This document shows, one piece after another, positions 6,577 to 21,595 of a stretch of 64,000 bases of DNA (its first letter is position 1; the number at the start of each line of letters is the position of its first letter). The stretch is taken from the NCBI RefSeq assembly GCF_024502345.1, contig NZ_JALDNN010000001.1, one strand, 5' to 3'. The DNA comes from Escherichia coli. GTDB lineage: Bacteria; Pseudomonadota; Gammaproteobacteria; Enterobacterales; Enterobacteriaceae. A program made the position numbers and the translations under genes. The notes below the pieces were generated by a model. The model ran no database searches and had not been told where the DNA came from. It saw only the letters and a program-made list of their open reading frames with translations.

Positions 6577-7524
6577 ATGACCTCGAACCGCAAGGGCAGG
6601 CGTGCGGAAACTGTGCGCCAACAAAACGTCCCCACCATCAACCCGGCACAGCTTTGGCTGGCAGGTCTGACGCGCGCCGGGCGCAAGGGGATGCAAAGCC
6701 AGCTTCGGCGCTGTGCCGGTATCCTGCTTCCGGGCTCGGATACCGACAGCTACCCCTGGCAGATGCTGAACTACACGGGGATGATGCAGATCCGTGCGCA
6801 CATGCTGGATGCTGGCTATGCTGTCGCGACTGTCAACATGGCACTGTCGGCGCTGAAATCGGTTGCCTTTAGCGCGTTCAGTATGGGTCTGATGGATGCT
6901 GACACGCTTGCGCGCATACGCAACGTCAGGCGGGTCAGTGGTGACGGTTGTAGGCTGGGGCGTGCGCTGGCCCGCCATGAAATCCGGTCAATGCTGGCGG
7001 CGGCAGCGACGTTCTCCACTGTGCGCTGTCAGCGCGAACGGGCCATTTTGTTGCTTCTGTGTGGTGCCGGGCTGCGAGCGGGTGAGCTGGTTGCCCTGAA
7101 TGCGGAGGATATTGACGTTGCCGCAGGGATTGTCTGGGTCAGGGAGGGAAAAGGGCGCAAAAGTCGTGAAATTCACCTTGCCGCGAAGGTATGCACGCAG
7201 CTGCGCCGTTGGCTGAAGTGCCGTGGAGACCATGAAGGGCCGTTGTTCAGTCGTATCAGCCGGGCAGACCGGCCAGGGCCACACAGGCTTACCACGACTG
7301 GATTGACGGGGCTGTTGGCACAGCTACGCGAAGCCGCTGGCGTGGACTATTTCACCCCGCACGACCTCAGACGAACGTTCATCACACAGTTGCTGGAGCA
7401 GGGAACCGACCTCAACGTGGTACGCCAGCTTGCGGGGCATGCCGATATCGCCACAACCACCCGATATGACTACAGGGGCCGGGGTACGCAGGACAGAGCC
7501 TCCAGGGCTTTCTGTTGCTGGTAA
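6577..7524 (+). CDS. tyrosine-type site-specific recombinase (phage integrase family)
   Basis: 315-aa ORF with GAGGA RBS; C-terminal catalytic-domain signature HDLRRTF...LAGH...TTTRYDY (R-H-R-Y residues). Confidence 0.8.
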   Translation: MTSNRKGRRAETVRQQNVPTINPAQLWLAGLTRAGRKGMQSQLRRCAGILLPGSDTDSYPWQMLNYTGMMQIRAHMLDAGYAVATVNMALSALKSVAFSAFSMGLMDADTLARIRNVRRVSGDGCRLGRALARHEIRSMLAAAATFSTVRCQRERAILLLLCGAGLRAGELVALNAEDIDVAAGIVWVREGKGRKSREIHLAAKVCTQLRRWLKCRGDHEGPLFSRISRADRPGPHRLTTTGLTGLLAQLREAAGVDYFTPHDLRRTFITQLLEQGTDLNVVRQLAGHADIATTTRYDYRGRGTQDRASRAFCCW

Positions 7525-7823
7525 ATCTTCATGGGGTGGGGGATGGCCTTCGTCACCTGCTGATTAAATTCACCAGAGGGTCCCGGAGATATTTTTGATG
7601 CCCCAAAGGCACGTCCAGGGCGGGCTCAGTGCTATGGGGAGGCCGGGAAAGTACGACCAACTCACCACCCCTGCTGAATGACACTATCGTACTTCGCGGC
7701 GCGGAGAGTATAACTTGGTAGCTGAGTATTTCTCAGAGCGATTAAAGTAGTTGTCTGTATGCATGTAGCGTCGGGAAACCATGAAACTAAACTCTGAATT
7801 CATTTAGCTGAATTTGCAGGCAA

Positions 7824-8339
7824 CTACGCCGAAGGACTGTCTGCCCGCTCTGTGCCATCCAGCTTTTCCATTGTTTGGATTACCCAGCGAAAATCATTTA
7901 TTTTTTCAGTCGTTTCCTTGCTCCATGTTTTGCCCGTTACTGCTGTTTTTTTCTTCTCTATATCCACTGGCGATGGATATTTTTTACAAAATTTGAGCAT
8001 GATATCCTTCAGTTCACACTTTTCCTTCAACTCATGAAATTTCAGATAGAGTTCTTTCAGCAGTTTCGCTTCTTTCGATACAGGTTCATATAAGTAGTCG
8101 ATGTAGACCATGTTGATCATGTTATCCAGCGCCTGGCGATATACTTTTCCTCTTCCTTTCTTCAGCATTGAATAATCGTCGTCGTCAAGCCAGTTAGCGA
8201 TCTCCAGTAAACGCTCCTGGCTGTCTTCATGCAGGTTGATTTCAAACCGCTTTCCATATTTCTCCTCCAGCCCTTTGCGGCTTTTCTGCTTAGGCGTCCT
8301 GGGCTCCGCCTTAGCCATATTTTCTTCGTTTTTTCCCAT
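7824..8339 (-). CDS. hypothetical lysine/glutamate-rich protein in an AT-rich segment
   Basis: 171-aa ORF is the only long frame in the AT-rich 7.6-8.4 kb block; divergent from alpA; no recognised family. Confidence 0.45.
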   Translation of the reverse strand: MGKNEENMAKAEPRTPKQKSRKGLEEKYGKRFEINLHEDSQERLLEIANWLDDDDYSMLKKGRGKVYRQALDNMINMVYIDYLYEPVSKEAKLLKELYLKFHELKEKCELKDIMLKFCKKYPSPVDIEKKKTAVTGKTWSKETTEKINDFRWVIQTMEKLDGTERADSPSA

Positions 8340-8383
8340 AACTCATACCTCATTTCGGATTGCCACTATCAGAGATCTTTTTG

Positions 8384-8431
8384 GACCGTCATAAATCAAT
8401 GACGGTCATTCTACTCCAAAGAATGACCGTC
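8384..8431. promoter_or_regulatory. operator-like cluster of GACCGTCAT inverted/direct repeats between divergent genes
   Basis: GACCGTCAT (8384-8392) and its reverse complement ATGACGGTC (8399-8407) with 6-bp spacer; second inverted pair GACGGTCATTC (8401-8411) / GAATGACCGTC (8421-8431). Confidence 0.5.
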
Positions 8432-8545
8432 CAAAAGTGGGCCGCGAACACTTTGACCGGCGATCGCCATGAATAATCGGCCGAAATCAACTTTGTAAAG
8501 GGAGGGCTGGCCGCCCACTGGGGGTGGATAGATGGAGTTAAAAAT

Positions 8546-8752
8546 ATGAATAACTGCAGGCTGCTCGATATCAAGACTGTGCTCGGGATGTACCCAGTAT
8601 CACGCGCAACGTTATATCGCCAGATCAAGGCGGGGCTCTTTCCGGAGCCTGTACGCATCGGTGCCCGTCGGGTGGCATGGCGTATGGAGGATATCCACGC
8701 GCATATCAGTGGGCTGCCCAATGTTGAGCTGGCTGAAGCAGCTCGTCTGTAA
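8546..8752 (+). CDS. alpA: AlpA-family phage regulatory protein (excisionase-like HTH)
   Basis: 68-aa protein; LLDIKTVLGMYPVSRATLYRQIKAGLFPEPVRIGARRVAWRMEDI matches AlpA/Xis-like HTH pattern. Confidence 0.8.
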   Translation: MNNCRLLDIKTVLGMYPVSRATLYRQIKAGLFPEPVRIGARRVAWRMEDIHAHISGLPNVELAEAARL

Positions 8753-8853
8753 GCCTCATATAGCCCCTCGTACAGGGGTTCATTCACCATAGTCAGTAGC
8801 ACCTCTACGGATAGCTACTGACATGAATTGCCGTGAGGCTAAGGGAACTGGCG

Positions 8854-9948
8854 ATGATTACAGTTAATCGTGAGCGTGTGGACAATCTCTCCGGGTCTGT
8901 ATACCTGGGGCGAAATACTGACGGCAATAGGTGCTATGGGCGAATTGATAAACTCGCCTGGGTAATGGATTTGTCTGATGATAGCGAGAATGCAGTGCTG
9001 AGTGGGCGTCTGGCTGGGCTGAGAGCGGGAGGGAACTATATCGTGCGGTGCCGCCCTGCCGGTAAAGGGGAGTGTTCTGGCCTCTATCGATCCGTGGTGG
9101 AGATCCGTCTCAAGAGTAAATCCAGTCATCATCCGCTGATGCTGGTCATTTACTTTGCGCCGACGAATACGGTGCGGGGCTCAGTGCGTATGGAAATGAG
9201 TCCTCAGCACTATTCAGCAGAGCAGATCACAGGACTGTTCATCTGGCTTGGGCGTAAGGGACGTCTGGGGAAGTACCTGTACAGGGGCTTGCGCCAGGCA
9301 TGGGTGACGTCCATTCACTACGCACTGGATGTAAAGGGAATGAAACTTCATGACTACCTGATTGGTCTGGCAAAGGTTCATGATGGTGAGTTTTACGATT
9401 TGCATGGTGAACAGGAAGGGTTGCGTCTGGGCTCTGCCACGCTGGTAGCCTCTGTCTACGCCAAGGTCCATTCTCCGTCGTTGAGCGTGGAGGAGCGCTA
9501 TGCATCTCCAAAGATTACGCTGGAGGAGGCGCAATTCGAGCGTTTTTTACGTCTGGAACTCCGCCTGCAGCCGGGGCGCCAGCAATTGAAGCTAAGTCAG
9601 ATGACGAGTATGACCTGTCTGGTCAGCAGGCTGATGTTCTGGCGTCGGGAGGTACTCCAGGATCGTCGGCTGGATCCGGATTTTGCGCAGCGGCTGGCGT
9701 TGATGTCAGTACCACGTGCACGGGCCACGTTTGAGCCCGCGAGGAGTCTGAATGGCCACAGAGTCAGTGCAACCCCAAAGGCTGCCAGGAAACGCGTGGA
9801 CAAGGTCATGGCTAATTACCGGGCGGCATTGTTTGATTCTGCGGCTATCTGGGACCAGTTACCGGTCATTCTCGCAAAACTCGGGCTTCTCGCGCAGCCT
9901 CAGTACTGGATTTACCGTAATCGCGTGAAGTGGCGAGGGAGCCGCTGA
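8854..9948 (+). CDS. hypothetical island protein, 364 aa
   Basis: Track ORF begins at GTG 8833; ATG 8854 with upstream AAGGGA RBS preferred. No Walker or nuclease motif recognised. Confidence 0.5.
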   Translation: MITVNRERVDNLSGSVYLGRNTDGNRCYGRIDKLAWVMDLSDDSENAVLSGRLAGLRAGGNYIVRCRPAGKGECSGLYRSVVEIRLKSKSSHHPLMLVIYFAPTNTVRGSVRMEMSPQHYSAEQITGLFIWLGRKGRLGKYLYRGLRQAWVTSIHYALDVKGMKLHDYLIGLAKVHDGEFYDLHGEQEGLRLGSATLVASVYAKVHSPSLSVEERYASPKITLEEAQFERFLRLELRLQPGRQQLKLSQMTSMTCLVSRLMFWRREVLQDRRLDPDFAQRLALMSVPRARATFEPARSLNGHRVSATPKAARKRVDKVMANYRAALFDSAAIWDQLPVILAKLGLLAQPQYWIYRNRVKWRGSR

Positions 9949-10301
9949 AGATAAGCCAGAAGCATATTAGAGGGGGTGTGATGCCACCCTCGTCTGTGGC
10001 GACCAAAAAAATGGCTCCCCCTGATATGTTCTGTGAGGCACGCCTCATCACAGCTGAACAGGGGGTGTGGCTATAGTATGGTGTATACAGTACATACCAG
10101 TACCAGTCTGTTCCCCCTCTGGAACCCTCAATGAGATTGCGACAAGTCACAAGGCATTGTTTTGAGGAAAATTCAGATCCTGAGATAGCCCCCCAAAAAA
10201 TGCAGCCAGCCTGAGTCACATCACTCTGCGCAACCGTAATTCACTGTGCAAATGTACAGCCTGTAAACAGGCAGCATGTTCATAAAACGGAGCACAGTGA
10301 A

Positions 10302-11786
10302 ATGAAAGCCTACTGCACACAAAACAATATTCTCGTCACGGAAAGCACGATGAATGCTTTCAGGGAGGCCATTTTTAGCGTTCCATTCGACGACACATGT
10401 GACGGACGATGCAAGCCAACGTGGTATATGTCCATTGCTATTTTTTTGCAGCATCTTATTTGCAGCGCCACTGCGAGCCGTAACACGCGTAAGCGGTCGC
10501 AATTTAAGGGGAACCGACTATGGACCTGTTCAGTTCCGTTTCCTTATGCACTGGGAGAAAAAGTGGCTCCGGCAGTATTCAGACGCTCAAGAGAGCTACC
10601 GTTTGAAAGAGCGCTGGAAAAGCTGGAGGAAGTAGGGTTTATCAGAATCATTACACACGATGTTATACGTCACAAATGCCGGGAATTTGCGCTTTCTCGG
10701 CGGTTTCTCGACGTGCTGTTTCCCGGGGACAGAACTGCTTATCTCAACCTGGAAGATCGGTATGGCTATCTGACCGATGTTTACCGCAGACGTATGGGAC
10801 CGATGACGCTGGAAGAACGGCTTGCTCAGGCCATGTTACGAAAGTGCAAAGTCAGGCATTTAACGTCAACCCGGAATATACCTGATAAGGCCTTTCGTGA
10901 GCGGGTTGCAGCGGTGTATGACCGGCTTGAAGCGTTGCCGGTTAACATCGATGCGCTGAGGATGTACTGTAACGAGCAACCATCCACTGTGAACAGGGTT
11001 TATTATCACAATTTTATCAGCCATCTTTGTGAAGCCGGTGTTGAGGCTATCAGCCTGAGTCCGTTAATCGTCTCATATCGGCAGGTATATCGTACGGCTA
11101 GGCTGGGCGGGCGTTCGTTTGAGGTGGGGAAGGGGTTTCAGTATCTGCCAAAAGGCATGAAATGGGCATGTCTGGGGCAGGGCTATAACTACGATATAAA
11201 AAGCAGCCAGCTTGAGATACTGCGTCATGAGCTGCAGCGTATCGGATTATCCGATAAAAACCTGAAGCGGCTGGAAACGGATTACATTACAAAGAAACTG
11301 GGCGTCACCACGGATGAGGTAAAACAATTTAGGTTTGCTGCTGTCTTTAGCGCTGGTTCGGTCAGCCTTTCAGTGAAAAGTGGAGTAAGGAAGAGGCTGA
11401 ATAAAGTTCTCGGCGATAAGAGGGCAGAAAACGTGCTCAAACGCTGGAAAAAATTGATGCAACCGCTACGGGAAGATCTGAAGAGGCTGATCGAGGATTA
11501 TCTGGCGACGGGAACCACAAATCGATACGGGCTTTGCGTGAAAAATGCTGTGGGACAAAATTTTAACTGTAGCTGGAAGAATTTCAGCGCCAGACAGGCA
11601 TGGCAGCCAGCGCAGATGCACCGAAAGCTGCTTGCGCACATGTTACAGGGGCTGGAAAGTCAGGCTGTGTACGATTATGTTGCCAGCAATAAAGGCGTTT
11701 GTGCGCTAGAGCATGATGGGTTTGTTACATATGAAGAGATAACTGACTGGTCCCATCCATATCTTTTGATAGAGAAAAAGCATTGA
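10302..11786 (+). CDS. hypothetical island protein, 494 aa
   Basis: Long ORF directly upstream of hsdM; no helicase or nuclease motifs, so it is not HsdR. Confidence 0.5.
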   Translation: MKAYCTQNNILVTESTMNAFREAIFSVPFDDTCDGRCKPTWYMSIAIFLQHLICSATASRNTRKRSQFKGNRLWTCSVPFPYALGEKVAPAVFRRSRELPFERALEKLEEVGFIRIITHDVIRHKCREFALSRRFLDVLFPGDRTAYLNLEDRYGYLTDVYRRRMGPMTLEERLAQAMLRKCKVRHLTSTRNIPDKAFRERVAAVYDRLEALPVNIDALRMYCNEQPSTVNRVYYHNFISHLCEAGVEAISLSPLIVSYRQVYRTARLGGRSFEVGKGFQYLPKGMKWACLGQGYNYDIKSSQLEILRHELQRIGLSDKNLKRLETDYITKKLGVTTDEVKQFRFAAVFSAGSVSLSVKSGVRKRLNKVLGDKRAENVLKRWKKLMQPLREDLKRLIEDYLATGTTNRYGLCVKNAVGQNFNCSWKNFSARQAWQPAQMHRKLLAHMLQGLESQAVYDYVASNKGVCALEHDGFVTYEEITDWSHPYLLIEKKH

Positions 11787-11922: not shown

Positions 11923-13458
11923 ATGAAGCAAGAAACGATCGTTCAAAAAATTTGGAGTCTCTGCAACATACTAAGAGGTGATGGTATCACCTATTATCAG
12001 TATGTTTCTGAACTAAGTTATTTGCTTTTTCTGAAGATTGCTCAAGAAAATGGTTCAGAAAAGCTGATACCTCAAGGCTACCGCTGGGCTGATCTTGAAT
12101 CCCATCCAGAAGCAGGATTATTAGGGTTTTATCAAGAGATGCTCACTCACTTGGGTGCGCATGTTAAAAATGAAATCATAAGAGAGATTTACGCATTCCC
12201 TACAACCGTTTTCTCCCATTCTGAAAATTTAAAAGCTGTTGTAGATGGTATTTCGAAAATAGAGTGGCACCAAGTAGGAAAAGATGGGTTTGGCGACCTC
12301 TATAGTGGTTTAATTGATAAAAGTGCTCAAGATACGCGTTCGGGAGCCGGGCAGTATTTTACTCCACGCTCTTTAGTTAACACGATAGTGAGATTGATAA
12401 AACCGAGTCTTGGCGAATTGATTCAAGATCCTGCGTCAGGAAGTGGTGGCTTCTTAGTTTCTGCTGACAGCTATATTCGAGTCAAATATTCACGAAAAGA
12501 GTATCAATTGAACCCTCCTAAATATCAAGGAGTGGAAATAGAGAAAAATACTCGTCGAATTTGCTTAATGAATACCTTTTTACATGATTTAGATGCACAC
12601 ATTATCTATGGTGATGCACTGACTGATGACGTAGCAGGGTTGGATGAAGCCGATGTAATCTTAGCCAATCCCCCTTTTGGCAATAAGGCTGGGGGACAAC
12701 GTCCTTTACGTAACGATATTCCATTCCCCAATACAAATAAGCAATTAGCTTTTTTGCAGCATATTTATTTGAAGCTTAAAGCTGGCGGTCGAGCTGCTGT
12801 AGTGGTACCCGATAATGTACTATTCGAATCTGGGGTTGGTACCGATGTACGTCGTGACTTAATGAATAAGTGCAATCTTCATACTATCTTGCGACTGCCC
12901 ACTGGTATTTTTTACGCCCAAGGTGTTAAAACCAATGTTCTGTTCTTTACTAAAGGCTCTGACAAAGATAAATATCAACAAGATAGCTGCACTGAGAACG
13001 TCTGGGTATACGATCTACGTACCAATATGCCAAGTTTTGGTAAACGTACACCCTTCGGTAATTCAGATATTGGCTTTGCGGCAGAAGATTTCGGTACAGA
13101 TCAGCACCTCGGCGCGTTCGAAAAAGTGTTCGGAGATAATCCAGACGGCACCAGCAAGCGCACCGAAGGTGAATACAGCTTTGGTGCAACAGATATTGAA
13201 ATTGATACAGAAGCAGTAGAAGAAAACCTGAATGTTGATGAACAGCTAGCCCATTCTCGCTGGCGCTACTTCAGCCGTGAGTGGATAGCCAATAATAAAG
13301 GCGATTCGCTGGATATCTCATGGTTAAAAGACAAAAAGAGTGTCGATGCGGCTGGTTTATCCGAGCCAAACGTTCTCGCTCGCGAGGCAAAAGAAGAATT
13401 AGAAGCAGCATTGAGTGAGCTGGATAGTTTATTGATCGCATTGGAAGGGGCCGAATAA
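11923..13458 (+). CDS. hsdM: Type I restriction-modification N6-adenine DNA methyltransferase subunit HsdM
   Basis: 511 aa; SAM-binding and catalytic motifs (DPASGSGGFL; ANPPFG) typical of HsdM; AT-rich codon usage. Confidence 0.9.
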   Translation: MKQETIVQKIWSLCNILRGDGITYYQYVSELSYLLFLKIAQENGSEKLIPQGYRWADLESHPEAGLLGFYQEMLTHLGAHVKNEIIREIYAFPTTVFSHSENLKAVVDGISKIEWHQVGKDGFGDLYSGLIDKSAQDTRSGAGQYFTPRSLVNTIVRLIKPSLGELIQDPASGSGGFLVSADSYIRVKYSRKEYQLNPPKYQGVEIEKNTRRICLMNTFLHDLDAHIIYGDALTDDVAGLDEADVILANPPFGNKAGGQRPLRNDIPFPNTNKQLAFLQHIYLKLKAGGRAAVVVPDNVLFESGVGTDVRRDLMNKCNLHTILRLPTGIFYAQGVKTNVLFFTKGSDKDKYQQDSCTENVWVYDLRTNMPSFGKRTPFGNSDIGFAAEDFGTDQHLGAFEKVFGDNPDGTSKRTEGEYSFGATDIEIDTEAVEENLNVDEQLAHSRWRYFSREWIANNKGDSLDISWLKDKKSVDAAGLSEPNVLAREAKEELEAALSELDSLLIALEGAE

Positions 13459-15143
13459 TGATTGAGACTTCTTTACCATGGCTGAGAGTCCAGCTCGGTG
13501 ACGTAGTTCCCTATGGTAAAACCGAAAAATGCGAATTATCTGACGTTACAGGTAACACTTGGGTACTTGAGCTCGAAGATATAGAAAAAGATAGCTCGAA
13601 GATCATACAACGGCTAGATGCAACTGCACGACCATTTAAAAGCACGAAAAATAAATTCCGTAAAGGAGATGTCCTTTACGGGAAACTGCGACCTTACTTA
13701 AATAAAGTTGTCATTGCGGACAGTTCTGGCGTTTGTTCGACTGAAATCATGCCTCTAAATGCTGAGCCATTTATTGACAATAGGTACCTCTTTTACTGGT
13801 TGAAAACTGAAGTTTTTATTGATTTTGTAAATTCTGTAAGCTACGGCGTGAATATGCCTCGACTCGGAACTAAAGATGGATTAGCTGCTCCATTTATTGT
13901 AGCTCCGCTTGCTGAGCAAAAAGTTATTGCCGATAAACTTGATACCTTGTTGGTGCAGGTGGATGCCATTAAGGCTCGCCTCGAACGCATCCCAGAAATC
14001 CTAAAAACCTTCCGCCAATCGATCCTCACCGCCGCAGTTAGTGGGAAGTTGACGGAGGGATGGCGATTAAAGAATAAACTCAGTAATGTAGTTGTAAAAC
14101 AAAATATCAATCTACCAAAATTAACCCCAAATGAACACTACCTCGAACATGTTGAAGGATGGCAATGGGTAAGACTGGGTTCTGTTGTTAGTCTAATAAA
14201 CGGCGATAGAGGAAAAAACTACCCTAATAAAAATGAATATGTTAAGGATGGAATACCGTTCATAAATACAGGGCATATTAATTCAGATGGAACACTTTCT
14301 GATGAACGCATGAATTTTATTTCCAAGGATAAGTTTGACTCCTTAAGTGGGGGAAAGACGAAATCAACAGATCTAGTTTATTGCCTCCGAGGTGCAACTA
14401 TGGGAAAAACTGCACGTGTCCACTACAAAATAGGGGCAATAGCATCCTCTCTTGTAATTATCCGACCGAGTGATTACATAGACAGAGATTTCGCATATTA
14501 TTTTCTTATTAGCCCTCCGGCTAAAGATTTAATTAATGAATTTGATAACGGATCCGCTCAGCCAAATCTATCTGCAAAGAGTTTGTCTACATACCCTTTA
14601 CAACTCCCTTCGTTTAAAGAACAAATCGAAATCGTCAGTCGCGTCGAAGAAATGTTCAACTTTTCATCTCTTGCCGAAGCAAAAGCTAAAACTGCATTAG
14701 AGCGTGTCAATAAAATTACTCAATCAATCCTAGCCAAAGCTTTCCGAGGCGAACTCACTGCAGATTGGCGCGCCGCCAACCCGGATTTAATCAGCGAAGA
14801 GAAAAGTGCTGAAGCTTTGCTGGAAAAAATTAAGGCAGAACGTGAAGCCATCGAAAAACAACCTAAGCCAACACGTTCCGTTATAAAAAAAAATACAGGT
14901 GGCCGTATGAGTAAACAGATTATCAAAGTGGTTGAAGCGCTAAAACAAGCGGGAAAACCGCTTAGTGGCCAACAATTGTTAGCTGCAGCTGGTTACCCTA
15001 GTGATAGCAGTACTGAGCAACTGGAACAGTTCTTTCTGGATATACGTGACGCTCTTACCATAGAAGAGTCCATTGTAAAGCTTGAGCGCGGTGGCGACAG
15101 TCAAGATTGGTTCGCCTTGGCTAATAATAAAGCAAAGAACTAA
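13458..15143 (+). CDS. hsdS: Type I restriction-modification specificity subunit HsdS with ~120-aa C-terminal extension
   Basis: Start ATG overlaps hsdM stop (ATGA). Two variable target-recognition regions separated by conserved helical repeats (...PLAEQKVIADKLDTL... and ...LPSFKEQIEIVSRVEEM...ILAKAFRGEL), then an extra tail. Confidence 0.85.
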   Translation: MIETSLPWLRVQLGDVVPYGKTEKCELSDVTGNTWVLELEDIEKDSSKIIQRLDATARPFKSTKNKFRKGDVLYGKLRPYLNKVVIADSSGVCSTEIMPLNAEPFIDNRYLFYWLKTEVFIDFVNSVSYGVNMPRLGTKDGLAAPFIVAPLAEQKVIADKLDTLLVQVDAIKARLERIPEILKTFRQSILTAAVSGKLTEGWRLKNKLSNVVVKQNINLPKLTPNEHYLEHVEGWQWVRLGSVVSLINGDRGKNYPNKNEYVKDGIPFINTGHINSDGTLSDERMNFISKDKFDSLSGGKTKSTDLVYCLRGATMGKTARVHYKIGAIASSLVIIRPSDYIDRDFAYYFLISPPAKDLINEFDNGSAQPNLSAKSLSTYPLQLPSFKEQIEIVSRVEEMFNFSSLAEAKAKTALERVNKITQSILAKAFRGELTADWRAANPDLISEEKSAEALLEKIKAEREAIEKQPKPTRSVIKKNTGGRMSKQIIKVVEALKQAGKPLSGQQLLAAAGYPSDSSTEQLEQFFLDIRDALTIEESIVKLERGGDSQDWFALANNKAKN

Positions 15144-15152
15144 GGACAGCCC

Positions 15153-16757
15153 ATGAAAGTCGACAAACTGCATATTCGCTCACGCTTTAAAAATCTTGAA
15201 AACGTGAAAGTGGACTTTGACGAAAACCACCTGATGACCGTTATCGTAGGCCGTAATGGTTCCGGTAAGTCCAATGTTCTAGAAGCCTTGGTTGCTATAT
15301 TTCGCAATCTTGATTTAGGTGAAGCACCAACATTTTCTTATGAGTTGGACTATCAACTAGGTGAGGAAGCCGGGGTTAAGTGGTATGACGTCAAGGTTGA
15401 TGCAGATCCAGACCGCGGAACGCTAGCAAAGCAATACCAAGTTTATGTCAAAGATAAACACGATAGCAAAGCGGATTTCAAGCTTACACCCTTCTCCAAA
15501 GTGAAACGCGATAAGAAAACCAAACAAGCAGAGTTTCTTCCTAACTTTCTATTCGCCTATTATTCCGGACCATCGGATAGATTAGAAAAATACTTTCGAA
15601 AGCATCGTGATGATTATTATCGAAACCTACTCTACAACAAGCTTGACTTGAAAGCAGATATTCGTTCTCTATTTTATGCCAAACCCTATCACAGTCAGTT
15701 TGTGCTCTTGGCATTTTTCCTGTCAGATGAAAATAGTCCTCAGCGCAAGTTTATTAAGGAGCATTTGGGTATTGAGGGATTGGACAGTATTCATTTTGTG
15801 ATGCGCCAACCTGAGTGGGCTAAGCTGAAGGGGGAATTATTCTGGGGAGCACAAGGTGTAGTTCGTCGCTTTTTGGATGAATTGATACAGCACACATTGT
15901 CACCGATAAAAGTAACTCGTCAAGAAGATACGTCGTTAACGGGTAGTTATATTCGAAATGAGTTCTTTCATCTATTTTTACCTGACGTAAACGCACTACA
16001 TGAATTTGCTAGAGATCTCAGTGCTGACGAACTGTTTAAAATGCTTGAAAGCACTCTGCTGTCAGAAATTATCTCTGAGGTTAGCATACGGGTGAAAGTA
16101 ACCAGCAGCAGGGAGCCTCTCACTTTCCGTGAACTTAGCGAAGGTGAACAACAGCTATTAACCGTATTGGGCTTACTCTGGTTCACCGGTGGTAAAGATT
16201 CCTTATTTTTACTCGACGAACCTGATACCCACCTTAATCCGTCATGGGCCGTTAAATACCTTAAATTCCTGCGTGAATTCGTACCCAATCATGAAACCAG
16301 CCATTTACTAATGGTCACACACCATCCTTTAGCTATTGCCGAGCTGAAGAAACAACAAGTACAAGTCATGTGGCGTGACGATGAAAATAATGTTCACTCA
16401 CAAGAGCCTTATATAGATCCTCGTGGCGCTGGCTTTATGGCCACACTTACTGAGATTTTTGGTCTAAATACAACACTGGATCTGGAAACCCAAAAGTTAT
16501 TGGACGATAGGAACGAACTAGCCCATATCGAAAATCGAACAGAAGATCAGAACAACCAGCTTGACCTTCTTAATGATGAGTTAAACAGACTAGGATTTTC
16601 ACTTGAAAACAGGGACCCGTTATACAGCGAGTTTCTTTTAGCATGGCAAGACCTAAGATACAGCGATAAACCACCACTAACACCGGATAAAGCGGCTCAG
16701 AGACGAGCTGCTATGAAAAATGTAATTGAGGCGCTTAAAGCTAAGAAGGGTTGCTAA
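15153..16757 (+). CDS. ABC-type (AAA_15/AAA_21-like) ATPase, Septu PtuA-like
   Basis: 534 aa; Walker A GRNGSGKSN, signature-like LSEGEQ, Walker B LFLLDEPDTHLNP, H-loop VTHHP; starts 10 bp after hsdS with AAGGA RBS. Confidence 0.75.
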   Translation: MKVDKLHIRSRFKNLENVKVDFDENHLMTVIVGRNGSGKSNVLEALVAIFRNLDLGEAPTFSYELDYQLGEEAGVKWYDVKVDADPDRGTLAKQYQVYVKDKHDSKADFKLTPFSKVKRDKKTKQAEFLPNFLFAYYSGPSDRLEKYFRKHRDDYYRNLLYNKLDLKADIRSLFYAKPYHSQFVLLAFFLSDENSPQRKFIKEHLGIEGLDSIHFVMRQPEWAKLKGELFWGAQGVVRRFLDELIQHTLSPIKVTRQEDTSLTGSYIRNEFFHLFLPDVNALHEFARDLSADELFKMLESTLLSEIISEVSIRVKVTSSREPLTFRELSEGEQQLLTVLGLLWFTGGKDSLFLLDEPDTHLNPSWAVKYLKFLREFVPNHETSHLLMVTHHPLAIAELKKQQVQVMWRDDENNVHSQEPYIDPRGAGFMATLTEIFGLNTTLDLETQKLLDDRNELAHIENRTEDQNNQLDLLNDELNRLGFSLENRDPLYSEFLLAWQDLRYSDKPPLTPDKAAQRRAAMKNVIEALKAKKGC

Positions 16758-17599
16758 TGATTTACATCAAACGAGACGCCACGCTAATTCCTGCAAAGGT
16801 ACTTGCCGTTGCCCAACGCGCGCAAGATGCTCTGGAACAGCTTCCCGCTGAGCAGAGGAAAGGTTTCATCAAGAAAAAGTCTCATATATGGAGAGGCTTT
16901 TCTAAATACCTAGCCCAAATGTCTTATGGGAAGTGCTGGTATTCAGAAGCTAAAGATGCAGGTGCAAATTTCGATGTAGATCATTTCCGACCTAAGGCTG
17001 AAGCAAAGAGGACAGAAGATTTGGTCGATGCGGATGGTTATGCGTGGCTCGCATTTGATTGGGAAAACTTCAGGCTTTCTGCTCAGAATTGTAACCGTTT
17101 AAACACAGATGAATCAGGTAACACGGTAGGAAAAGGCAGTTGGTTCCCGCTGCTAGATGGTAGCCCTAAAGCCTGCTGGGATAATCGCTGTATTAACGAT
17201 GAAAAAGTCACTTTGCTAGACCCTGTAGTTAAAGCTGACCTCACCTATATAGACTACGACGACAGCGGTAGATTTACTTCAAGTAAGCTCTGCGTTGGTA
17301 AGGCAGCATTAAGGGTTAGGCAATCTGGCATTATTTATGGCCTCAATTTGGAGAAAATGCGTGAAGCACGATTTCAGGTTATGAGGGAGGCTAAAGAACT
17401 CCTTGAAACTATTCACCAATGTGCCGAAGACTTAGACCCTCTGGGCAATGAAGCCCCCATGAGAACTATTGAACGACAAATAGAACAACTCCAATCCAGA
17501 ACCCGGGCCGATGCACCATTTAGCCGTGCAGTAAGAACACAACTGATAAAACTCGGTGCAGAGGATTACTTAATTGATCGAAGTTTGGATGCAGCCTAG
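16757..17599 (+). CDS. HNH endonuclease-domain protein, Septu PtuB-like
   Basis: ATG at 16757 overlaps the upstream stop (TAATG); HNH-type motif CWYSE...DVDHFRPK...NFRLSAQNCNRLN. Confidence 0.7.
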   Translation: MIYIKRDATLIPAKVLAVAQRAQDALEQLPAEQRKGFIKKKSHIWRGFSKYLAQMSYGKCWYSEAKDAGANFDVDHFRPKAEAKRTEDLVDADGYAWLAFDWENFRLSAQNCNRLNTDESGNTVGKGSWFPLLDGSPKACWDNRCINDEKVTLLDPVVKADLTYIDYDDSGRFTSSKLCVGKAALRVRQSGIIYGLNLEKMREARFQVMREAKELLETIHQCAEDLDPLGNEAPMRTIERQIEQLQSRTRADAPFSRAVRTQLIKLGAEDYLIDRSLDAA

Positions 17600-17770: not shown

Positions 17771-17941
17771 ATGAGCACCCACAAAAAAACTCAGGCAAGC
17801 TACGCTAAGCCATCTCGTGCTGACATTGTTCGCTCAGTAGCAACATCTACGGCTGTTGAAACAGGGCAGTCCTCCGCGAAGATCGAAGCTTCACTTGAAG
17901 CCACGCGCAAAAAATTTGCTCATTTGCGTCTTGCGGTTTAA
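17771..17941 (+). CDS. small protein of unknown function (56 aa), convergent with the Fic gene
   Basis: ATG preceded by AGGAG RBS 5 nt upstream; 3' end overlaps the Fic stop region by 4 bp. Confidence 0.5.
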   Translation: MSTHKKTQASYAKPSRADIVRSVATSTAVETGQSSAKIEASLEATRKKFAHLRLAV

Positions 17942-18555
17942 TCCCTTCTTAATGCTTCTCGCACCCAGTGTTTCATCGGCTCATAGTCCATTGATATGCC
18001 AGCATGGATGGCCGATATATACTGAGTTTTGTTTTGCTCCCAGCTTTGATAATCCAGCGGTTTGTATCCTCCCTGAACGGCCATCACGTCGGCTAGCAGT
18101 CGCGACAGGCGTCCGTTTCCCTCTCTGAATGGATGGATAAGTATTATCTCTACATGGGTTATGGCGATAGCGGTGATGAGTTGTTCTTCGTCCATGCCGC
18201 TACACGGTGTGTATTGAGCCAGATACTTAGTGTCGAATTCGTTCAGCAGTTTTGGCACCTGCGCTGAGGGGGCAAACATAAAGCCGCCTTTGCTAATATT
18301 CACCGCTCTTTCTTGTCCAGCCCACTCGTAGATGTTACCTAACCAGCGGCGATGCCAGCTTTTTAGCATGGCTACGCTGAGCTGTCCTTCCGGGAACTGC
18401 TCTTCAAAAACAGACTGGTAGAGTTGTTCTAACAGGACAAGTTCAGCCTCATCCATCTCATCAGAAGTCGCAATCCCCAGCTTATTAGCCAAAACCTGCT
18501 CGCCAGAGTCTTTCTCATACTGGCCTTCACTGCTGGATACATGGTATCGGCTCAT
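17938..18555 (-). CDS. Fic-domain protein (putative AMP-transferase)
   Basis: 205 aa with canonical Fic motif HPFREGNGRLSRLL. Confidence 0.85.
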   Translation of the reverse strand: MSRYHVSSSEGQYEKDSGEQVLANKLGIATSDEMDEAELVLLEQLYQSVFEEQFPEGQLSVAMLKSWHRRWLGNIYEWAGQERAVNISKGGFMFAPSAQVPKLLNEFDTKYLAQYTPCSGMDEEQLITAIAITHVEIILIHPFREGNGRLSRLLADVMAVQGGYKPLDYQSWEQNKTQYISAIHAGISMDYEPMKHWVREALRRD

Positions 18556-19443: not shown

Positions 19444-21522
19444 TTAAATCAATGCCGATTTATCAATTCCCAGTCGCTTCATCCGTGACAGCAGGGTCGT
19501 GCGTTTCAGCCCCAGACGTTGCGCAGCGCCTTTAGGCCCGGCAACCACGCCGTTAGTTTCTTTCAGCACGCGAACAATCAACTGATATTCATCTTCGCCC
19601 TCCTGAGCGACAACCGTTGCGGCAGGCGGCGTTTCAGGCTCCGGTAAAGCAATATCTGGCAATGACAACTGCAGCACGTTGCCGCGTGTTAGCAATACCG
19701 CGCGCTCAATGACGTTTTCCAGTTCGCGTACGTTACCCGGCCACTCCATATTGCTCAAGGTGCGCAACGTCTCGGCAGGAATGCTGTCGATATTGCGCCC
19801 CAGACGACGGGCAATTTTGAAGGTAAAGGCTTTCGCCAGCAGCGGAATATCTTCCGGACGCTCGCGTAGTGGCGGAAGGTGAATCGGGAATACGTTCAGG
19901 CGGTAATAGAGATCGCTACGGAACTCACGGTCGGCGACCATTTTTTTCAGATCGCGGTTAGTCGCGGCAATTAAACGTACGTCCGTCTGAATGATTTTGT
20001 TGCTGCCGAGACGTTCAAACTCCTGTTCCTGCAATACACGCAGCAACTTCGGCTGTAACTCCAGTGGCATATCGCCCACTTCGTCGAGGAACAGGGAGCT
20101 TTTATCCGCCAGTTCAAAACGACCAATGCGCTGGGCGCTGGCACCGGTAAAAGCCCCACGCTCATGACCAAACAGATCGCTTTCCAGTAATCCGGCAGGC
20201 ATCGCCGCGCAGTTCATTTTGACCATGCGGCGATTATTACGCCCACTGAGATTATGGATCGCGCGGGCAATCAGCTCTTTACCCGTGCCAGTTTCACCGA
20301 GGATCAGCACGGTACTGTCACTTTGCGCCACCATTTCAACTTGTTTAAGCACGCTGTACATGGCTTCGCTGCGGCCAATAATCTCGCCAAATTCACTATC
20401 AACATTGTTGAGCTGCTCGGTCAGGGCGAGGTTTTCATCAACCAGCCGTTCTTTCAGACGATGGATTTCCTGATAGGCGAGGGCGTTATCGACAGCGATT
20501 GCCACACGTTCGGCAATCTGGCGCAGTAAATTCAGATTGGTAGTGGTAAACACTTTCTCTTCGCATTGCGCCAGTTTCAGCACGCCCAGCATGGTGTCGC
20601 CAGACATCAGCGGTAACAGGCACAAGGTTTGAATCTGGTTGCCCCAGGTGTCGAACAACATGCGTTCATAGGGGGCTAAATCGTCCCGCTCGTGGAGATT
20701 GATCAGCAGCATCTCTTTACTTTTGAACACGCGTTCGGTGAGGGTTCCGGCTTCATCGACTTCGCTCTGTTCGTGGGCGGGATGTTGTTTATCAAGATAG
20801 TGAGTGGAGTAGATGTTGAGTTTGTTTTTACGGTGGCTGCGTAAGACAATGCTGATATCGTCAATGTCGAAATAGTAATGGATTTCTTTGGCGACTTCGC
20901 TGACCAGTTCGTCCATATCCAGGCGGGAAAGCACCGCGTTGGTGATGGCGACCAGGATGCGGAAGTTATCGCGTTCCCGGCATAACAACTCATAGTCGAC
21001 ATTGTTAACGACGCGACTCTGGATTTGTTCGGTGATGACAGAAACGATCTGCGTAAATGTTTGCAGACGATTGAACTCTTTTTCGCTCCAGGGGCGATCG
21101 TCATAACGAATAAATTCACAGCCACCAAAAATATGCCCTTCCGCCGCCAGTGGCATCAGGCAATAGTGACCAAATTTTGGGTATAGCCCACCTGCGGCCA
21201 GCTGCGGCCAGGTTTCACAAAATTCTTCGTAACTGCAATGCAGCGTATCAGGGCGCGACAAAATGCTGCGTACCGGACCGTGTGCCAGAACAGTTTCGTC
21301 TTCATATTTAATGGGGGTGTCTTTTTCACGCGATGCGTAATAAGACGCACGTTGAGTCTGCGCTTGCCACAACACAATAGCCGCGTTGTCGGCGAGCGCA
21401 GAACGCTTTACCAGTTGCGAAAGAGCCTCACACAGCGAGGCCAGATCGGGCTGCTGCAATAGTGTCCGAGTGATGTCGAACAACCCTTGCTGTCCGAGAT
21501 CACTCATCGGTGTATATGACAT
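19444..21522 (-). CDS. fhlA: formate hydrogenlyase transcriptional activator FhlA (sigma54-dependent)
   Basis: Protein MSYTPMSDLGQQGLF... with AAA+ sigma54-interaction domain ([14 protein letters not shown]) and C-terminal HTH; start 12 codons inside the track ORF. Confidence 0.95.
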   Translation of the reverse strand: MSYTPMSDLGQQGLFDITRTLLQQPDLASLCEALSQLVKRSALADNAAIVLWQAQTQRASYYASREKDTPIKYEDETVLAHGPVRSILSRPDTLHCSYEEFCETWPQLAAGGLYPKFGHYCLMPLAAEGHIFGGCEFIRYDDRPWSEKEFNRLQTFTQIVSVITEQIQSRVVNNVDYELLCRERDNFRILVAITNAVLSRLDMDELVSEVAKEIHYYFDIDDISIVLRSHRKNKLNIYSTHYLDKQHPAHEQSEVDEAGTLTERVFKSKEMLLINLHERDDLAPYERMLFDTWGNQIQTLCLLPLMSGDTMLGVLKLAQCEEKVFTTTNLNLLRQIAERVAIAVDNALAYQEIHRLKERLVDENLALTEQLNNVDSEFGEIIGRSEAMYSVLKQVEMVAQSDSTVLILGETGTGKELIARAIHNLSGRNNRRMVKMNCAAMPAGLLESDLFGHERGAFTGASAQRIGRFELADKSSLFLDEVGDMPLELQPKLLRVLQEQEFERLGSNKIIQTDVRLIAATNRDLKKMVADREFRSDLYYRLNVFPIHLPPLRERPEDIPLLAKAFTFKIARRLGRNIDSIPAETLRTLSNMEWPGNVRELENVIERAVLLTRGNVLQLSLPDIALPEPETPPAATVVAQEGEDEYQLIVRVLKETNGVVAGPKGAAQRLGLKRTTLLSRMKRLGIDKSALI

Positions 21523-21595
21523 TTTGTTCTTCCAGGAAAGCACCGCAAAGCGGTGCAAAAGGTCATTGACTAACTATAGGAGATTTAGAATTTTA

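What the first reader, a model, noticed from the sequence alone, without database searches (positions are those of the whole stretch)
11923..17599. Four-gene operon: Type I HsdM-HsdS with no HsdR, coupled to a Septu-like ABC ATPase and HNH nuclease
hsdM and hsdS overlap (ATGA). The ATPase gene starts 10 bp after hsdS with its own RBS, and the HNH gene start overlaps the ATPase stop (TAATG), so all four look co-transcribed and translationally coupled. No ORF in the window resembles HsdR: there is no ~1000-aa SF2 helicase/nuclease, and the gene upstream of hsdM is a 494-aa protein without helicase motifs. The position where a restriction subunit would be expected is occupied by a PtuA-like ATPase (Walker A GRNGSGKS, LSEGEQ, Walker B LLDEPD, H-loop) and a PtuB-like HNH nuclease (DVDHFRPK...NCNRLN). 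Either the ATPase/HNH pair acts as a methylation-guided effector replacing HsdR, or this is a defence islet where an orphan Type I M/S module and a Septu-type system share a transcript.
Basis: partly seen in the sequence, partly recalled or inferred. Interest (0 to 1): 0.85.

Follow-up and report, generated by a model that had tools for sequence, protein, structure and literature searches.

The report
Type I methylase wired to Septu nuclease
This E. coli island carries a four-gene defence cassette in which a Type I DNA methylase and its specificity subunit are permanently joined to a Septu-type ATPase and nuclease, and comparison with about 60 other genomes shows that the classical restriction subunit is an optional extra.

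Summary
The four genes are real and tightly packed: hsdM, hsdS, a PtuA-type ABC ATPase and a PtuB-type HNH nuclease. No hsdR lies in the window.

61 related loci from many phyla changed the picture. In every locus that could be evaluated down to about 36% PtuA identity, ptuA starts within 26 nt of the hsdS stop codon. 32 of these loci also carry a full-length hsdR just upstream, and 27 have none within 10 kb. So PtuAB is not a general substitute for HsdR. It is an obligate partner of HsdM/HsdS, and HsdR has been lost or gained at least 8-15 times.

All linked HsdS proteins carry an extra C-terminal winged-helix domain on a flexible linker. EcoKI HsdS lacks this domain, and its divergence tracks PtuA rather than HsdM. 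In the lineage without hsdR, HsdM is under strong purifying selection (dN/dS about 0.07), its catalytic motifs are intact, and the target-recognition domains are swapped.

My best reading is a single composite system: the methyltransferase core senses DNA and marks self, and PtuAB is the effector. A PrrC-like guard model is the main rival. I found no published description. I rate it a new variant of a known kind, of moderately high interest.

The parts
11923..13458 (+). hsdM: Type I N6-adenine DNA methyltransferase subunit (511 aa)
   Evidence: PADLOC MTase_I PDLC03026, 3e-190. 50% identical to EcoKI HsdM. Motif I (DPASGSGGF) and motif IV (NPPFG) are intact and conserved in 60 of 60 related loci. 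dN/dS is 0.04-0.09 within the lineage that lacks hsdR.
13458..14852 (+). hsdS body: two target-recognition domains plus two conserved helical regions (residues 1-465)
   Evidence: PADLOC Specificity_I, 8e-114. Two Pfam Methylase_S domains. Aligns to the solved EcoKI HsdS up to its C-terminus at query residue 465. The target-recognition domains are only 17-26% identical among cassettes whose HsdM is 74-88% identical (85-88% for all but one, L018), so they have been swapped.
14853..14927 (+). hsdS linker: Lys-rich and predicted disordered (residues about 466-490). It contains an A9 homopolymer at 14885-14893.
   Evidence: AlphaFold2 pLDDT is below 50-66 in this stretch. Sequence read. A Klebsiella allele with A10 at the same place is frameshifted, which splits the tail into a separate 80-aa ORF.
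14928..15143 (+). hsdS C-terminal winged-helix domain (residues about 491-561, plus the stop codon). EcoKI HsdS has no such domain.
   Evidence: A 64-96 aa tail beyond the end of EcoKI HsdS is present in all 57 linked HsdS proteins examined. It is predicted as helix-helix-helix-beta-beta with pLDDT 83-89. Foldseek gives only generic winged-helix matches. It is the best conserved part of HsdS, at 68-97% identity. Its pairwise distances correlate with PtuA (rho 0.82) more than with HsdM (0.45). Profile hits across 1.8 billion proteins sit almost always at the extreme C-terminus of HsdS-sized proteins or in small ORFs; all six such small ORFs whose context was looked up lie directly upstream of a ptuA.
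15153..16757 (+). ptuA-like ABC/SMC-type ATPase (534 aa)
   Evidence: PADLOC PtuA PDLC00293, 2e-215 over the full length. Pfam AAA_15, AAA_21 and SMC_N. Best NCBIfam hit is TIGR04435, 'restriction system-associated AAA family ATPase', at 163 bits, below the cut-off of 300. Only remote sequence similarity to solved PtuA and AriA chains, E about 1e-7. Walker A, Walker B and signature motifs are conserved in 61 of 61 loci. The start lies 9 nt after the hsdS stop; this spacer ranges from -26 to +26 nt in 58 of 58 loci.
16757..17599 (+). ptuB-like HNH nuclease (280 aa from the ATG at 16757)
   Evidence: PADLOC PtuB PDLC00343, 1e-99. No Pfam hit and no sequence hit in the PDB. The AlphaFold2 model has pLDDT 93. 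Its nine best Foldseek PDB matches are all PtuB chains of Septu or retron Ec78 (E 5e-6 to 1.5e-4, probability 1.0). Residues K59, C60, D75, H76, N104 and N113 are invariant in 59 homologues.

Best explanation
The four genes form one composite defence system.

Shown:
- A clade of PtuA/PtuB pairs is always encoded immediately after an hsdS gene.
- That HsdS always carries an extra C-terminal winged-helix domain on a flexible linker.
- hsdM is always present.
- hsdR is present in only about half of the loci and has been lost or gained many times.
- In lineages without hsdR, HsdM, PtuA and (for the one comparable pair) PtuB stay under strong purifying selection with catalytic motifs intact.
- The target-recognition domains of HsdS keep being exchanged.

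Inferred:
- HsdM2-HsdS1 methylates the host at a bipartite target and acts as the sequence- and methylation-sensing module.
- The winged-helix tail of HsdS tethers or regulates the PtuA oligomer. This would parallel the way the retron RT-msDNA holds PtuAB in retron Ec78, and perhaps the way a kleisin winged helix sits on an SMC head.
- When the methylase core engages unmodified target sites on incoming DNA, PtuA releases or activates the PtuB HNH nuclease.
- PtuB then cuts nucleic acid. Both DNA and tRNA-Tyr are reported targets for other PtuB proteins.
- Where HsdR is present it provides classical Type I cleavage in parallel. In the window's version the system works without it.
For: - Obligate linkage. 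61 loci were retrieved using PtuA peptides only, so the sample is unbiased with respect to neighbouring genes. hsdS-ptuA-ptuB is contiguous in all evaluable loci with PtuA identity of 36-86%, spanning Proteobacteria, Firmicutes, Actinobacteria, Fibrobacteres and Nitrospinota. The hsdS-to-ptuA spacer is -26 to +26 nt in 58 of 58 loci. Three plasmid examples show the same arrangement, two of them in the order S-A-B-M.
- hsdR is optional. 32 loci have hsdR and 27 do not. Only one locus (L048) shows a remnant of hsdR. At least 8 state changes are needed on the HsdM tree and at least 15 on the PtuA tree. Large neighbouring ORFs in hsdR-less loci are unrelated to nucleases or helicases.
- A domain specific to HsdS in this context. 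The tail is present in all linked HsdS proteins. It is predicted to be a winged helix. It co-varies with PtuA (rho 0.82) rather than with HsdM (0.45) or the adjacent HsdS conserved region (0.46). In plasmids it is found only where PtuA is found.
- The methylase stays functional without HsdR. dN/dS is about 0.07 at dS about 1. NPPFG and motif I are intact in 28 of 28 hsdR-less loci. Target-recognition domains are swapped while the tail is conserved.
- The cassette is mobile without hsdR. It occurs on E. coli islands at two different insertion sites, on an ICE and on plasmids, so dependence on a resident HsdR is unlikely. The closest complete genome lacks the mrr-hsdRMS-mcrBC region.
- Precedents. 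PtuAB is co-opted by retrons as an effector held in check by a sensor (abstracts listed). MADS is a methylation-based defence with HsdM- and HsdS-like parts and effectors that are not HsdR.
Against: - No experiment or complex prediction was possible, so the contact between the winged-helix tail and PtuA is an inference.
- Co-variation of the tail with PtuA could reflect physical adjacency on the DNA. In the close subset of loci the correlation is no better than that of the neighbouring conserved region (0.65 against 0.67).
- The Foldseek matches of the tail are weak and generic (E 0.02-0.3).
- Half of the loci keep HsdR. If PtuAB cut unmodified DNA, it would be redundant there.
- Other ABC ATPase-nuclease pairs (PrrC, PARIS, retron-Septu) act as guards that cause abortive infection. 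They do not act as methylation-guided restriction enzymes.
- An hsdR elsewhere in the host genome was excluded only at the canonical locus, and only in a close relative of the window's genome (99.6% identical over 95% of the first 24 kb).
- Gene calls in related loci come from a crude ORF caller, with flanks limited to 10 kb.
Confidence: 0.5

Rival explanations
1. Guard or abortive-infection model, like PrrC-EcoprrI or PARIS. The methylase core, with or without HsdR, is a bait that keeps PtuAB latent through the HsdS tail. Phage anti-restriction proteins that bind the M2S1 DNA groove (Ocr- or ArdA-type DNA mimics, or Stp-like peptides) dislodge or activate PtuAB. PtuAB then destroys tRNA or DNA and aborts the infection. 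Methylation specificity is irrelevant to triggering.
For: - The same linkage evidence as for the best explanation applies.
- The model explains naturally why PtuAB co-exists with HsdR in 32 loci.
- Family precedent is strong. PrrC is embedded in a Type I system and is kept inactive by it (text quoted). PARIS is an ABC ATPase-nuclease pair triggered by Ocr. Retron-bound PtuAB is a latent toxin (abstracts).
- The ATPase also gives weaker hits to AriA models.
Against: - A bait would not need catalysis or changing specificity. Yet NPPFG and motif I are invariant in 28 of 28 hsdR-less loci.
- The whole HsdM protein has dN/dS of about 0.07.
- Target-recognition domains keep being exchanged among hsdR-less cassettes.
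- None of these points is decisive. Catalytic motifs may be needed for folding or DNA binding, and the swapped domains may be imported from systems that have hsdR.
Confidence: 0.27
2. There are two independent systems that travel together. Septu PtuAB works on its own and has become genetically hitch-hiked to hsdMS operons, either as a 'genomic sink' effect or through selfish co-transfer. No physical or regulatory coupling exists, and the HsdS tail has a function unrelated to PtuAB.
For: - Defence genes are often embedded in or appended to Type I, BREX and Hma loci, in the same orientation in 96.7% of cases.
- The PtuAB module has clearly moved between different hsdMS lineages. PtuA is 81% identical between two loci whose HsdM proteins are only 49% identical.
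- PtuB types are exchanged independently.
- At 35% PtuA identity, the pair is found next to kinases instead of hsdMS.
Against: - No locus with PtuA identity of 36% or more lacks an adjacent hsdS, out of 58 evaluable loci across phyla. By contrast, most known embedded systems also occur free-standing. Payne et al. single out PrrC as the one almost exclusively embedded in Type I systems.
- The junction is always within 26 nt of the stop codon.
- The HsdS tail exists only in this context and tracks PtuA.
- hsdMS is retained with PtuAB after repeated loss of hsdR.
Confidence: 0.15
3. The window holds a decaying Type I system. hsdR was recently deleted, and the remaining hsdMS is an orphan methylase kept for epigenetic regulation or by inertia. 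Only PtuAB still defends.
For: - Loss of hsdR is the one harmless way for a Type I system to decay (established knowledge).
- One related locus (L048) keeps a C-terminal hsdR remnant, which shows that deletion does occur.
Against: - The HsdM clade that lacks hsdR spans E. coli, Providencia, Lelliottia, Acinetobacter, Trabulsiella, Advenella, Vibrio and Enterobacter. It shows synonymous divergence of about 1 and dN/dS of about 0.07, so it is old and under selection.
- No hsdR remnant exists in the window or in the other hsdR-less loci.
- In other E. coli strains the same island slot holds a complete, unrelated Type I system, which suggests the slot takes self-sufficient defence cargo.
Confidence: 0.06

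Closest known systems
Septu type I (PtuA + PtuB; E. coli ATCC 25922 complex, PDB 8EEA)
   Same: Both have an ABC-type ATPase followed by a translationally coupled HNH nuclease. PADLOC files both proteins under PtuA and PtuB. The predicted PtuB fold matches solved PtuB chains best.
   Different: Sequence similarity to characterised PtuA and PtuB is remote (E about 1e-7 for PtuA, none for PtuB). Canonical Septu is a free-standing two-gene system. This clade is never found without hsdM and a tailed hsdS.
Retron-Eco7 / Ec78 (type I-A retron, also called Septu type II)
   Same: A PtuAB effector pair is co-opted by an upstream sensor module encoded in the same operon. This is the closest precedent for how the cassette probably works.
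   Different: In the retron the sensor is a reverse transcriptase with msDNA, whereas here it is a Type I methyltransferase core. NCBIfam retron-type PtuA and PtuB equivalog scores are far below their cut-offs (63 against 500, and 38 against 150).
PrrC-EcoprrI (anticodon nuclease embedded in a Type Ic R-M locus)
   Same: An ABC-ATPase-regulated nuclease is genetically locked to hsd genes and controlled by the R-M proteins (quoted).
   Different: PrrC is a single polypeptide with its own anticodon-nuclease domain and sits within a complete hsdMSR locus. Here there is a separate HNH subunit, a dedicated HsdS tail, and HsdR is dispensable.
MADS (methylation-associated defence system, mad1-8)
   Same: Self and non-self are distinguished by methylation using HsdM-like, HsdS-like and ABC-ATPase-like parts, with no HsdR. 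Weak PADLOC and NCBIfam hits to mad2, mad3 and mad5.
   Different: The mandatory MAD6, MAD7 and MAD8 are absent. Scores are far below the NCBIfam cut-offs. The cassette has four genes, against eight in MADS.
EcoKI-family (type IA) restriction-modification
   Same: HsdM is 50% identical to EcoKI HsdM, and the HsdS body aligns to the EcoKI HsdS structure. One related locus (L005) has HsdR 89% and HsdM 93% identical to EcoKI plus the same PtuAB add-on.
   Different: The window has no HsdR. HsdS has an extra 96-residue linker plus winged helix. Two extra genes are fused to the modification operon.
Septu embedded in Hma systems (Payne et al. 2021, 2024)
   Same: Septu genes are nested in the operon of a methylase-containing defence system.
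   Different: Hma has an m5C methylase, a helicase and an ATPase, and none of these is present here. According to those papers, Hma-linked Septu also occurs apart from Hma.

Membership tests
Septu (PtuAB) | PtuA: ABC/AAA_15-AAA_21 type ATPase with Walker A, Walker B and signature motifs | tested here: met
   PADLOC PDLC00293, 2e-215 over the full length. Pfam AAA_15 and AAA_21. Motifs conserved in 61 of 61 loci.
Septu (PtuAB) | PtuB: HNH nuclease of the PtuB fold, encoded directly after ptuA | tested here: met
   PADLOC PDLC00343, 1e-99. AlphaFold2 model pLDDT 93, and the top nine Foldseek PDB hits are all PtuB chains. D75, H76, N104 and N113 are invariant. Start and stop overlap as TAATG.
Septu (PtuAB) | Two genes form a self-contained, free-standing system | tested here: not met
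   In 58 of 58 evaluable related loci the pair directly follows a tailed hsdS, with hsdM present. Functional autonomy cannot be tested with these tools.
Septu (PtuAB) | PtuA6:PtuB2 complex with ATP-regulated nuclease activity | not testable with these tools
   This needs biochemistry or multimer modelling.
Retron type I-A effector PtuA/PtuB (NCBIfam NF041760, NF041761) | Score above the curated equivalog cut-off, with an adjacent reverse transcriptase and ncRNA | tested here: not met
   Scores are 63.5 against a cut-off of 500, and 37.6 against 150. No reverse transcriptase gene is in the locus.
Type I restriction-modification system | HsdM with N6-adenine methyltransferase motifs | tested here: met
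Type I restriction-modification system | HsdS with two target-recognition domains and conserved helical spacers | tested here: met
Type I restriction-modification system | HsdR helicase-nuclease subunit | tested here: not met
   None in the window. None in the island of the closest genomes. The canonical hsd region is absent from strain ET490. HsdR is present in 32 of 59 evaluable related loci. The rest of the host genome was not scanned.
TIGR04435 restriction system-associated AAA family ATPase | Score at or above the curated cut-off of 300 bits | tested here: not met
   163.5 bits, E 8e-48. This is the best NCBIfam hit but is below the cut-off, so the protein is a related family rather than a member.
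MADS | Presence of the mandatory MAD6, MAD7 and MAD8 | tested here: not met
   No such genes are in the locus. Hits to mad2, mad3 and mad5 are weak and far below the NCBIfam cut-offs.
PrrC / RloC anticodon nucleases | ABC ATPase fused to an anticodon-nuclease domain, embedded in a complete hsd locus | tested here: not met
   No PrrC model appears among the 25 best PADLOC hits shown, out of 140 families matched. The nuclease is a separate HNH protein, and hsdR is absent. The resemblance is functional only.

The most novel reading that the evidence does not exclude
This is an HsdR-independent, methylation-guided restriction mechanism. The HsdM2S1 core recognises unmodified bipartite sites. Through a kleisin-like winged-helix tail on HsdS, it loads or licenses a PtuA ABC-ATPase/PtuB HNH complex that cuts the invader. 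The cassette would then be a new class of R-M-like enzyme, in which an ABC ATPase-HNH module takes the place of the SF2 motor-nuclease HsdR.
Probability: 0.3. Interest if true: 0.85.

Novelty: new variant of a known kind. Interest (0 to 1): 0.68.

Why it matters
Standard defence-finding pipelines would split this locus into a 'Septu' system and an 'incomplete Type I R-M' system, and so miss that they form one unit.

If the coupling is real, it has three consequences:
- It would add another sensor module found to co-opt the PtuAB effector, after retrons.
- It gives a defined, testable adaptor, the HsdS winged-helix tail, for studying how a DNA-sequence and methylation sensor talks to an ABC-ATPase switch.
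- It explains why a widespread class of apparently orphan Type I methylases is maintained without HsdR.

It also bears on practical work. Such cassettes would restrict or abort infection in strains that look free of Type I restriction, which matters for phage therapy and for the transformability of Enterobacterales, Acinetobacter, Pseudomonas and Vibrio.

Tried and rejected
- Looked for hsdR in the window, and for hsdR remnants in all loci, by tblastn and an HMM built from 28 of the related HsdR proteins (those over 1000 aa). Nothing was found except one remnant in L048.
- Checked whether large ORFs next to hsdR-less cassettes could be substitute motor-nucleases. They are adhesins, autotransporters, glycosyltransferases or unknowns.
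- Tested whether EcoKI HsdR could be supplied by the host. The canonical region is deleted in the closest complete genome. That genome is only 99.6% identical over 95% of the first 24 kb of the window. A whole-genome scan was not feasible.
- Considered membership in MADS, retron-Septu, Hma and PrrC. Each is rejected on a defining feature (see the membership table).
- Stand-alone 66-84 aa 'tail' proteins first suggested a trans-acting adaptor gene. On inspection they are frameshift products in a poly-A tract, miscalled ORFs, or low-coverage metagenome contigs. All six whose context was looked up lie directly upstream of ptuA. I do not count them as evidence for a separate gene.
- The Foldseek search with the tail gave only weak, generic winged-helix matches. 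The kleisin resemblance is kept as a lead and is not counted as evidence.
- The promoter and terminator scan was uninformative, with counts equal to those in shuffled sequence.
- The phage collection has no PtuA relative.
- Six literature searches and several full-text look-ups found no description of hsdMS-PtuAB coupling. The library lacks most subscription journals, and the Septu structure paper could not be opened.
- A chimeric single-chain AlphaFold run of tail plus PtuA was not attempted, because the tool returns no inter-residue error or contact information.

Full report
**Observation.**
The window matches E. coli chromosomes. The 5.7-kb finding is 100% identical in five complete genomes and 99.1% identical in a sixth. 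The first 24 kb of the window is 99.6% identical to the best of them over 95% of its length.

The region is the cargo end of an integrative island between mutS and ygbA-fhlA. Four same-strand ORFs occupy 11923-17599. Against PADLOC they match as follows:
- Type I methyltransferase, 3e-190.
- Type I specificity subunit, 8e-114.
- PtuA, 2e-215 over the full length.
- PtuB, 1e-99 over the full length.

Pfam gives AAA_15/AAA_21/SMC_N for the ATPase and two Methylase_S domains for HsdS. It gives nothing for the fourth protein.

The junctions, read directly from the sequence, are:
- TAATG, a one-base overlap between hsdM and hsdS.
- A 9-nt spacer with AAGGA between hsdS and ptuA.
- TAATG between ptuA and ptuB.

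No HsdR is encoded in the window. The upstream 494-aa protein has no recognisable domain.

**Related loci.**
I aligned 15 PtuA homologues, drawn from 5774 proteins with E of 1e-20 or better. I then used two PtuA peptides to pull loci from one genome per species in GTDB. This gave 61 loci with PtuA identity of 34-86%. They come from Gamma-, Beta- and Alphaproteobacteria, Firmicutes, Actinobacteria, Chloroflexi, Fibrobacteres, Nitrospinota and others.

The selection did not depend on neighbouring genes. A simple ORF map, annotated by phmmer against the window's proteins, shows hsdM-hsdS-ptuA-ptuB in essentially every locus. A few loci have the order hsdS-ptuA-ptuB-hsdM, which also appears on two plasmids. 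The distance from the hsdS stop to the ptuA start is -26 to +26 nt in all 58 loci where both genes are present. The association ends only at the most distant member, a Chloroflexi locus with PtuA at 35% identity, where protein kinases lie upstream.

**HsdR is optional.**
- In 32 loci a 1080-1210 aa ORF lies just upstream on the same strand. In a few of these it is truncated, split or cut by a contig end.
- Three representatives match the PADLOC Type I REase model PDLC03042, with E from 0 to 3e-203.
- One of them (L005, Enterobacter) is 89% identical to EcoKI HsdR. Its HsdM is 93% identical to EcoKI HsdM.
- Eleven loci have a SoFic gene between hsdR and hsdM.
- 27 loci have no HsdR within the fetched flanks. 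Only L048 has a remnant detectable by tblastn.
- Large ORFs near these hsdR-less cassettes are adhesins, glycosyltransferases or unknowns.
- On neighbour-joining trees the presence or absence of hsdR needs at least 15 changes on the PtuA tree and at least 8 on the HsdM tree.

The window belongs to a coherent hsdR-less HsdM clade, 74-88% identical to the window's HsdM. The clade is found in E. coli, Providencia, Lelliottia, Acinetobacter, Trabulsiella, Advenella, Vibrio and Enterobacter. Three further E. coli islands carry divergent four-gene cassettes without hsdR: two at a second insertion site, yicC-dinD, and one at the same ygbA site. So does a conjugative Vibrio plasmid.

In strain ET490, a close relative of the window's genome, the canonical mrr-hsdRMS-mcrBC region is replaced by BrnTA and IS1.

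**The methylase core stays functional.**
- Within the hsdR-less clade, HsdM has dN/dS of 0.04-0.09 at dS of about 1. PtuA has dN/dS of 0.05-0.24.
- Motif I (DPxxGxxGF) and motif IV (NPPFG) are intact in all 28 hsdR-less and all 32 hsdR-containing loci.
- The PtuA nucleotide-binding motifs are intact in all 61 loci.
- Among hsdR-less cassettes with nearly identical HsdM, the HsdS target-recognition domains are only 17-26% identical. Specificities are therefore being exchanged, as in classical Type I systems.

**A context-specific domain on HsdS.**
- The window's HsdS aligns to the solved EcoKI HsdS up to that protein's C-terminus and then continues for 96 more residues.
- Every PtuAB-linked HsdS examined (57 of 57) has such a tail, 64-96 aa long.
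- AlphaFold2, run with a 58-sequence alignment, predicts a disordered Lys-rich linker followed by a three-helix, two-strand winged helix with pLDDT 83-89.
- Foldseek against the PDB returns only weak generic winged-helix matches (E 0.02-0.3). Several of the top hits are the C-terminal winged helices of the kleisins ScpA, Scc1 and RAD21 bound to SMC ATPase heads. I treat this as a lead only.
- The tail is the best conserved part of HsdS, at 68-97% identity.
- Across 52 loci its pairwise distances correlate with PtuA (Spearman 0.82) far better than with HsdM (0.45) or with the adjacent conserved region of the same protein (0.46). That conserved region tracks HsdM instead (0.65). The contrast disappears in the subset of close relatives, so physical adjacency may contribute.
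- In the plasmid collection the tail occurs only in the two records that also carry a close PtuA.
- A tail profile searched against 1.8 billion representative proteins finds 619 proteins. Among the 150 best listed, with one repetitive exception, the match sits at the extreme C-terminus of HsdS-sized proteins or fragments, or in 56-103 aa ORFs.
- All six small ORFs whose context I looked up lie directly upstream of a ptuA. They are best explained by frameshifts or miscalls.

**The effector pair.**
- PtuA has only remote sequence similarity to solved PtuA and AriA chains.
- Its best NCBIfam hit is TIGR04435, 'restriction system-associated AAA family ATPase', below the cut-off.
- PtuB has no sequence match in Pfam or the PDB.
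- Its model (pLDDT 93) has solved PtuB chains from E. coli Septu and retron Ec78 as its nine best structural matches.
- The HNH residues are invariant.
- PtuB exists in at least two types, about 30% identical to each other, that are exchanged between otherwise similar cassettes.
- PtuA that is 81% identical is attached to HsdM lineages only 49% identical. The tail-PtuA-PtuB end of the operon is therefore itself modular.

**Interpretation.**
Three lines of evidence argue that these genes form one system with two optional layers:
- the strict linkage of ptuA to hsdS;
- the dedicated HsdS domain;
- the retention of an apparently active methylase with PtuAB after many independent losses of hsdR.

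I favour a model in which M2S1 is the sequence and methylation sensor and self-marker, the winged-helix tail couples it to PtuA, and PtuB is the nuclease output. I give this a confidence of about 0.5.

The main rival is a PrrC- or PARIS-like guard, in which anti-restriction proteins attacking M2S1 unleash PtuAB (about 0.27). It explains the co-existence with HsdR more naturally. It predicts no need for catalysis or for changing specificity, which fits less well.

Mere co-travelling of two independent systems (about 0.15) is hard to square with 58 of 58 adjacency and the PtuA-tracking tail. A recently decayed R-M system (about 0.06) is contradicted by the age of the hsdR-less clade and by the selection acting on it.

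The target of PtuB is open. Papers in the library report DNA for E. coli Septu, and tRNA-Tyr for retron-Eco7 and for a Septu acting on T6.

**Comparison with the literature.**
Known contexts for PtuAB are free-standing Septu, retron type I-A, and embedding in Hma. PrrC-EcoprrI and MADS are the nearest functional analogies. Six searches of the held library found no paper describing an hsdMS-PtuAB unit, a tailed HsdS, or the optional status of HsdR in this family. The library lacks most subscription journals. I therefore rate this a new variant of a known kind.

**Limits.**
- Gene maps of related loci rest on a crude longest-ORF caller and 10-kb flanks.
- hsdR elsewhere in the genomes was not excluded.
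- The neighbour-joining and Fitch counts are approximate and are confounded by recombination.
- No complex modelling or experiment was possible.

Noticed in passing
window 17938-18555 (- strand); also L006, L066, L080: A 205-aa Fic-family gene lies convergent to ptuB. It matches PADLOC candidate PDC-S04 (1e-101) and is preceded by a 56-aa ORF. It stays in place when the cargo upstream is a different cassette or a complete Type I system, so it belongs to the island and is not part of the four-gene unit. Separately, a SoFic gene sits between hsdR and hsdM in 11 related loci and upstream of hsdM on a Vibrio plasmid.
   Followed up: partly
window 14885-14893; L075 7980-8000: There is an A9 homopolymer in the Lys-rich linker between the HsdS body and its winged-helix tail. 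A widespread Klebsiella pneumoniae allele has A10 at the same place. The resulting frameshift cuts the tail off as a separate 80-aa ORF directly upstream of ptuA. This could be a slippage-prone switch that uncouples the tail from HsdS, or simply a common pseudogene allele.
   Followed up: partly
window 6577-11786; L002, L066, L080: A conserved backbone precedes the defence cargo at two different E. coli insertion sites (mutS-ygbA and yicC-dinD). It consists of a 315-aa tyrosine recombinase, a small reverse-strand ORF, an AlpA/HTH gene and a gene of about 290-370 aa. The ygbA-site islands that carry this cassette also have a 476-494 aa gene. The 371-aa and 494-aa proteins have no PADLOC or NCBIfam match, and the 494-aa protein has no Pfam match. 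In other strains the same slot carries a complete, unrelated hsdM-hsdS-DUF5655-hsdR system, so it behaves as a defence-cargo hotspot.
   Followed up: partly
L001-L018 (ptuB genes); window 16757-17599: PtuB comes in at least two types that are only about 30% identical. The window's 280-aa type is shared with Providencia L004 (86%), Enterobacter L005 (78%) and Pseudomonas L008 (71%). Cassettes with almost the same HsdM and a 71-86% identical PtuA carry the other type. The nuclease subunit is therefore exchanged independently of its ATPase.
   Followed up: partly
L069 (E. coli ET490, 4185080-4186704 of NZ_CP100947.1): The closest complete genome lacks the whole immigration control region (mrr-hsdRMS-symE-mcrBC). 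A BrnT/BrnA toxin-antitoxin pair and an IS1 lie between yjiA and mdtM instead.
   Followed up: yes
window 19444-21558 (- strand) compared with L001 21522-23599: fhlA is an intact 704-aa ORF in the window but is annotated as frameshifted in ET490. No complete genome in the collection matches the first 24 kb of the window over more than 95% of its length or at more than 99.6% identity. The window therefore comes from a sibling strain that is not in the collection.
   Followed up: no
L057 6488-12450 (Tengunoibacter tsumagoiensis): The most distant PtuAB pair retrieved (35% PtuA identity) is preceded by two Ser/Thr-kinase-like genes instead of hsdMS. These genes match PADLOC mad6 and PD-T4-6 models (E 1e-50 to 1e-66). 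This suggests yet another sensor module paired with this effector.
   Followed up: no
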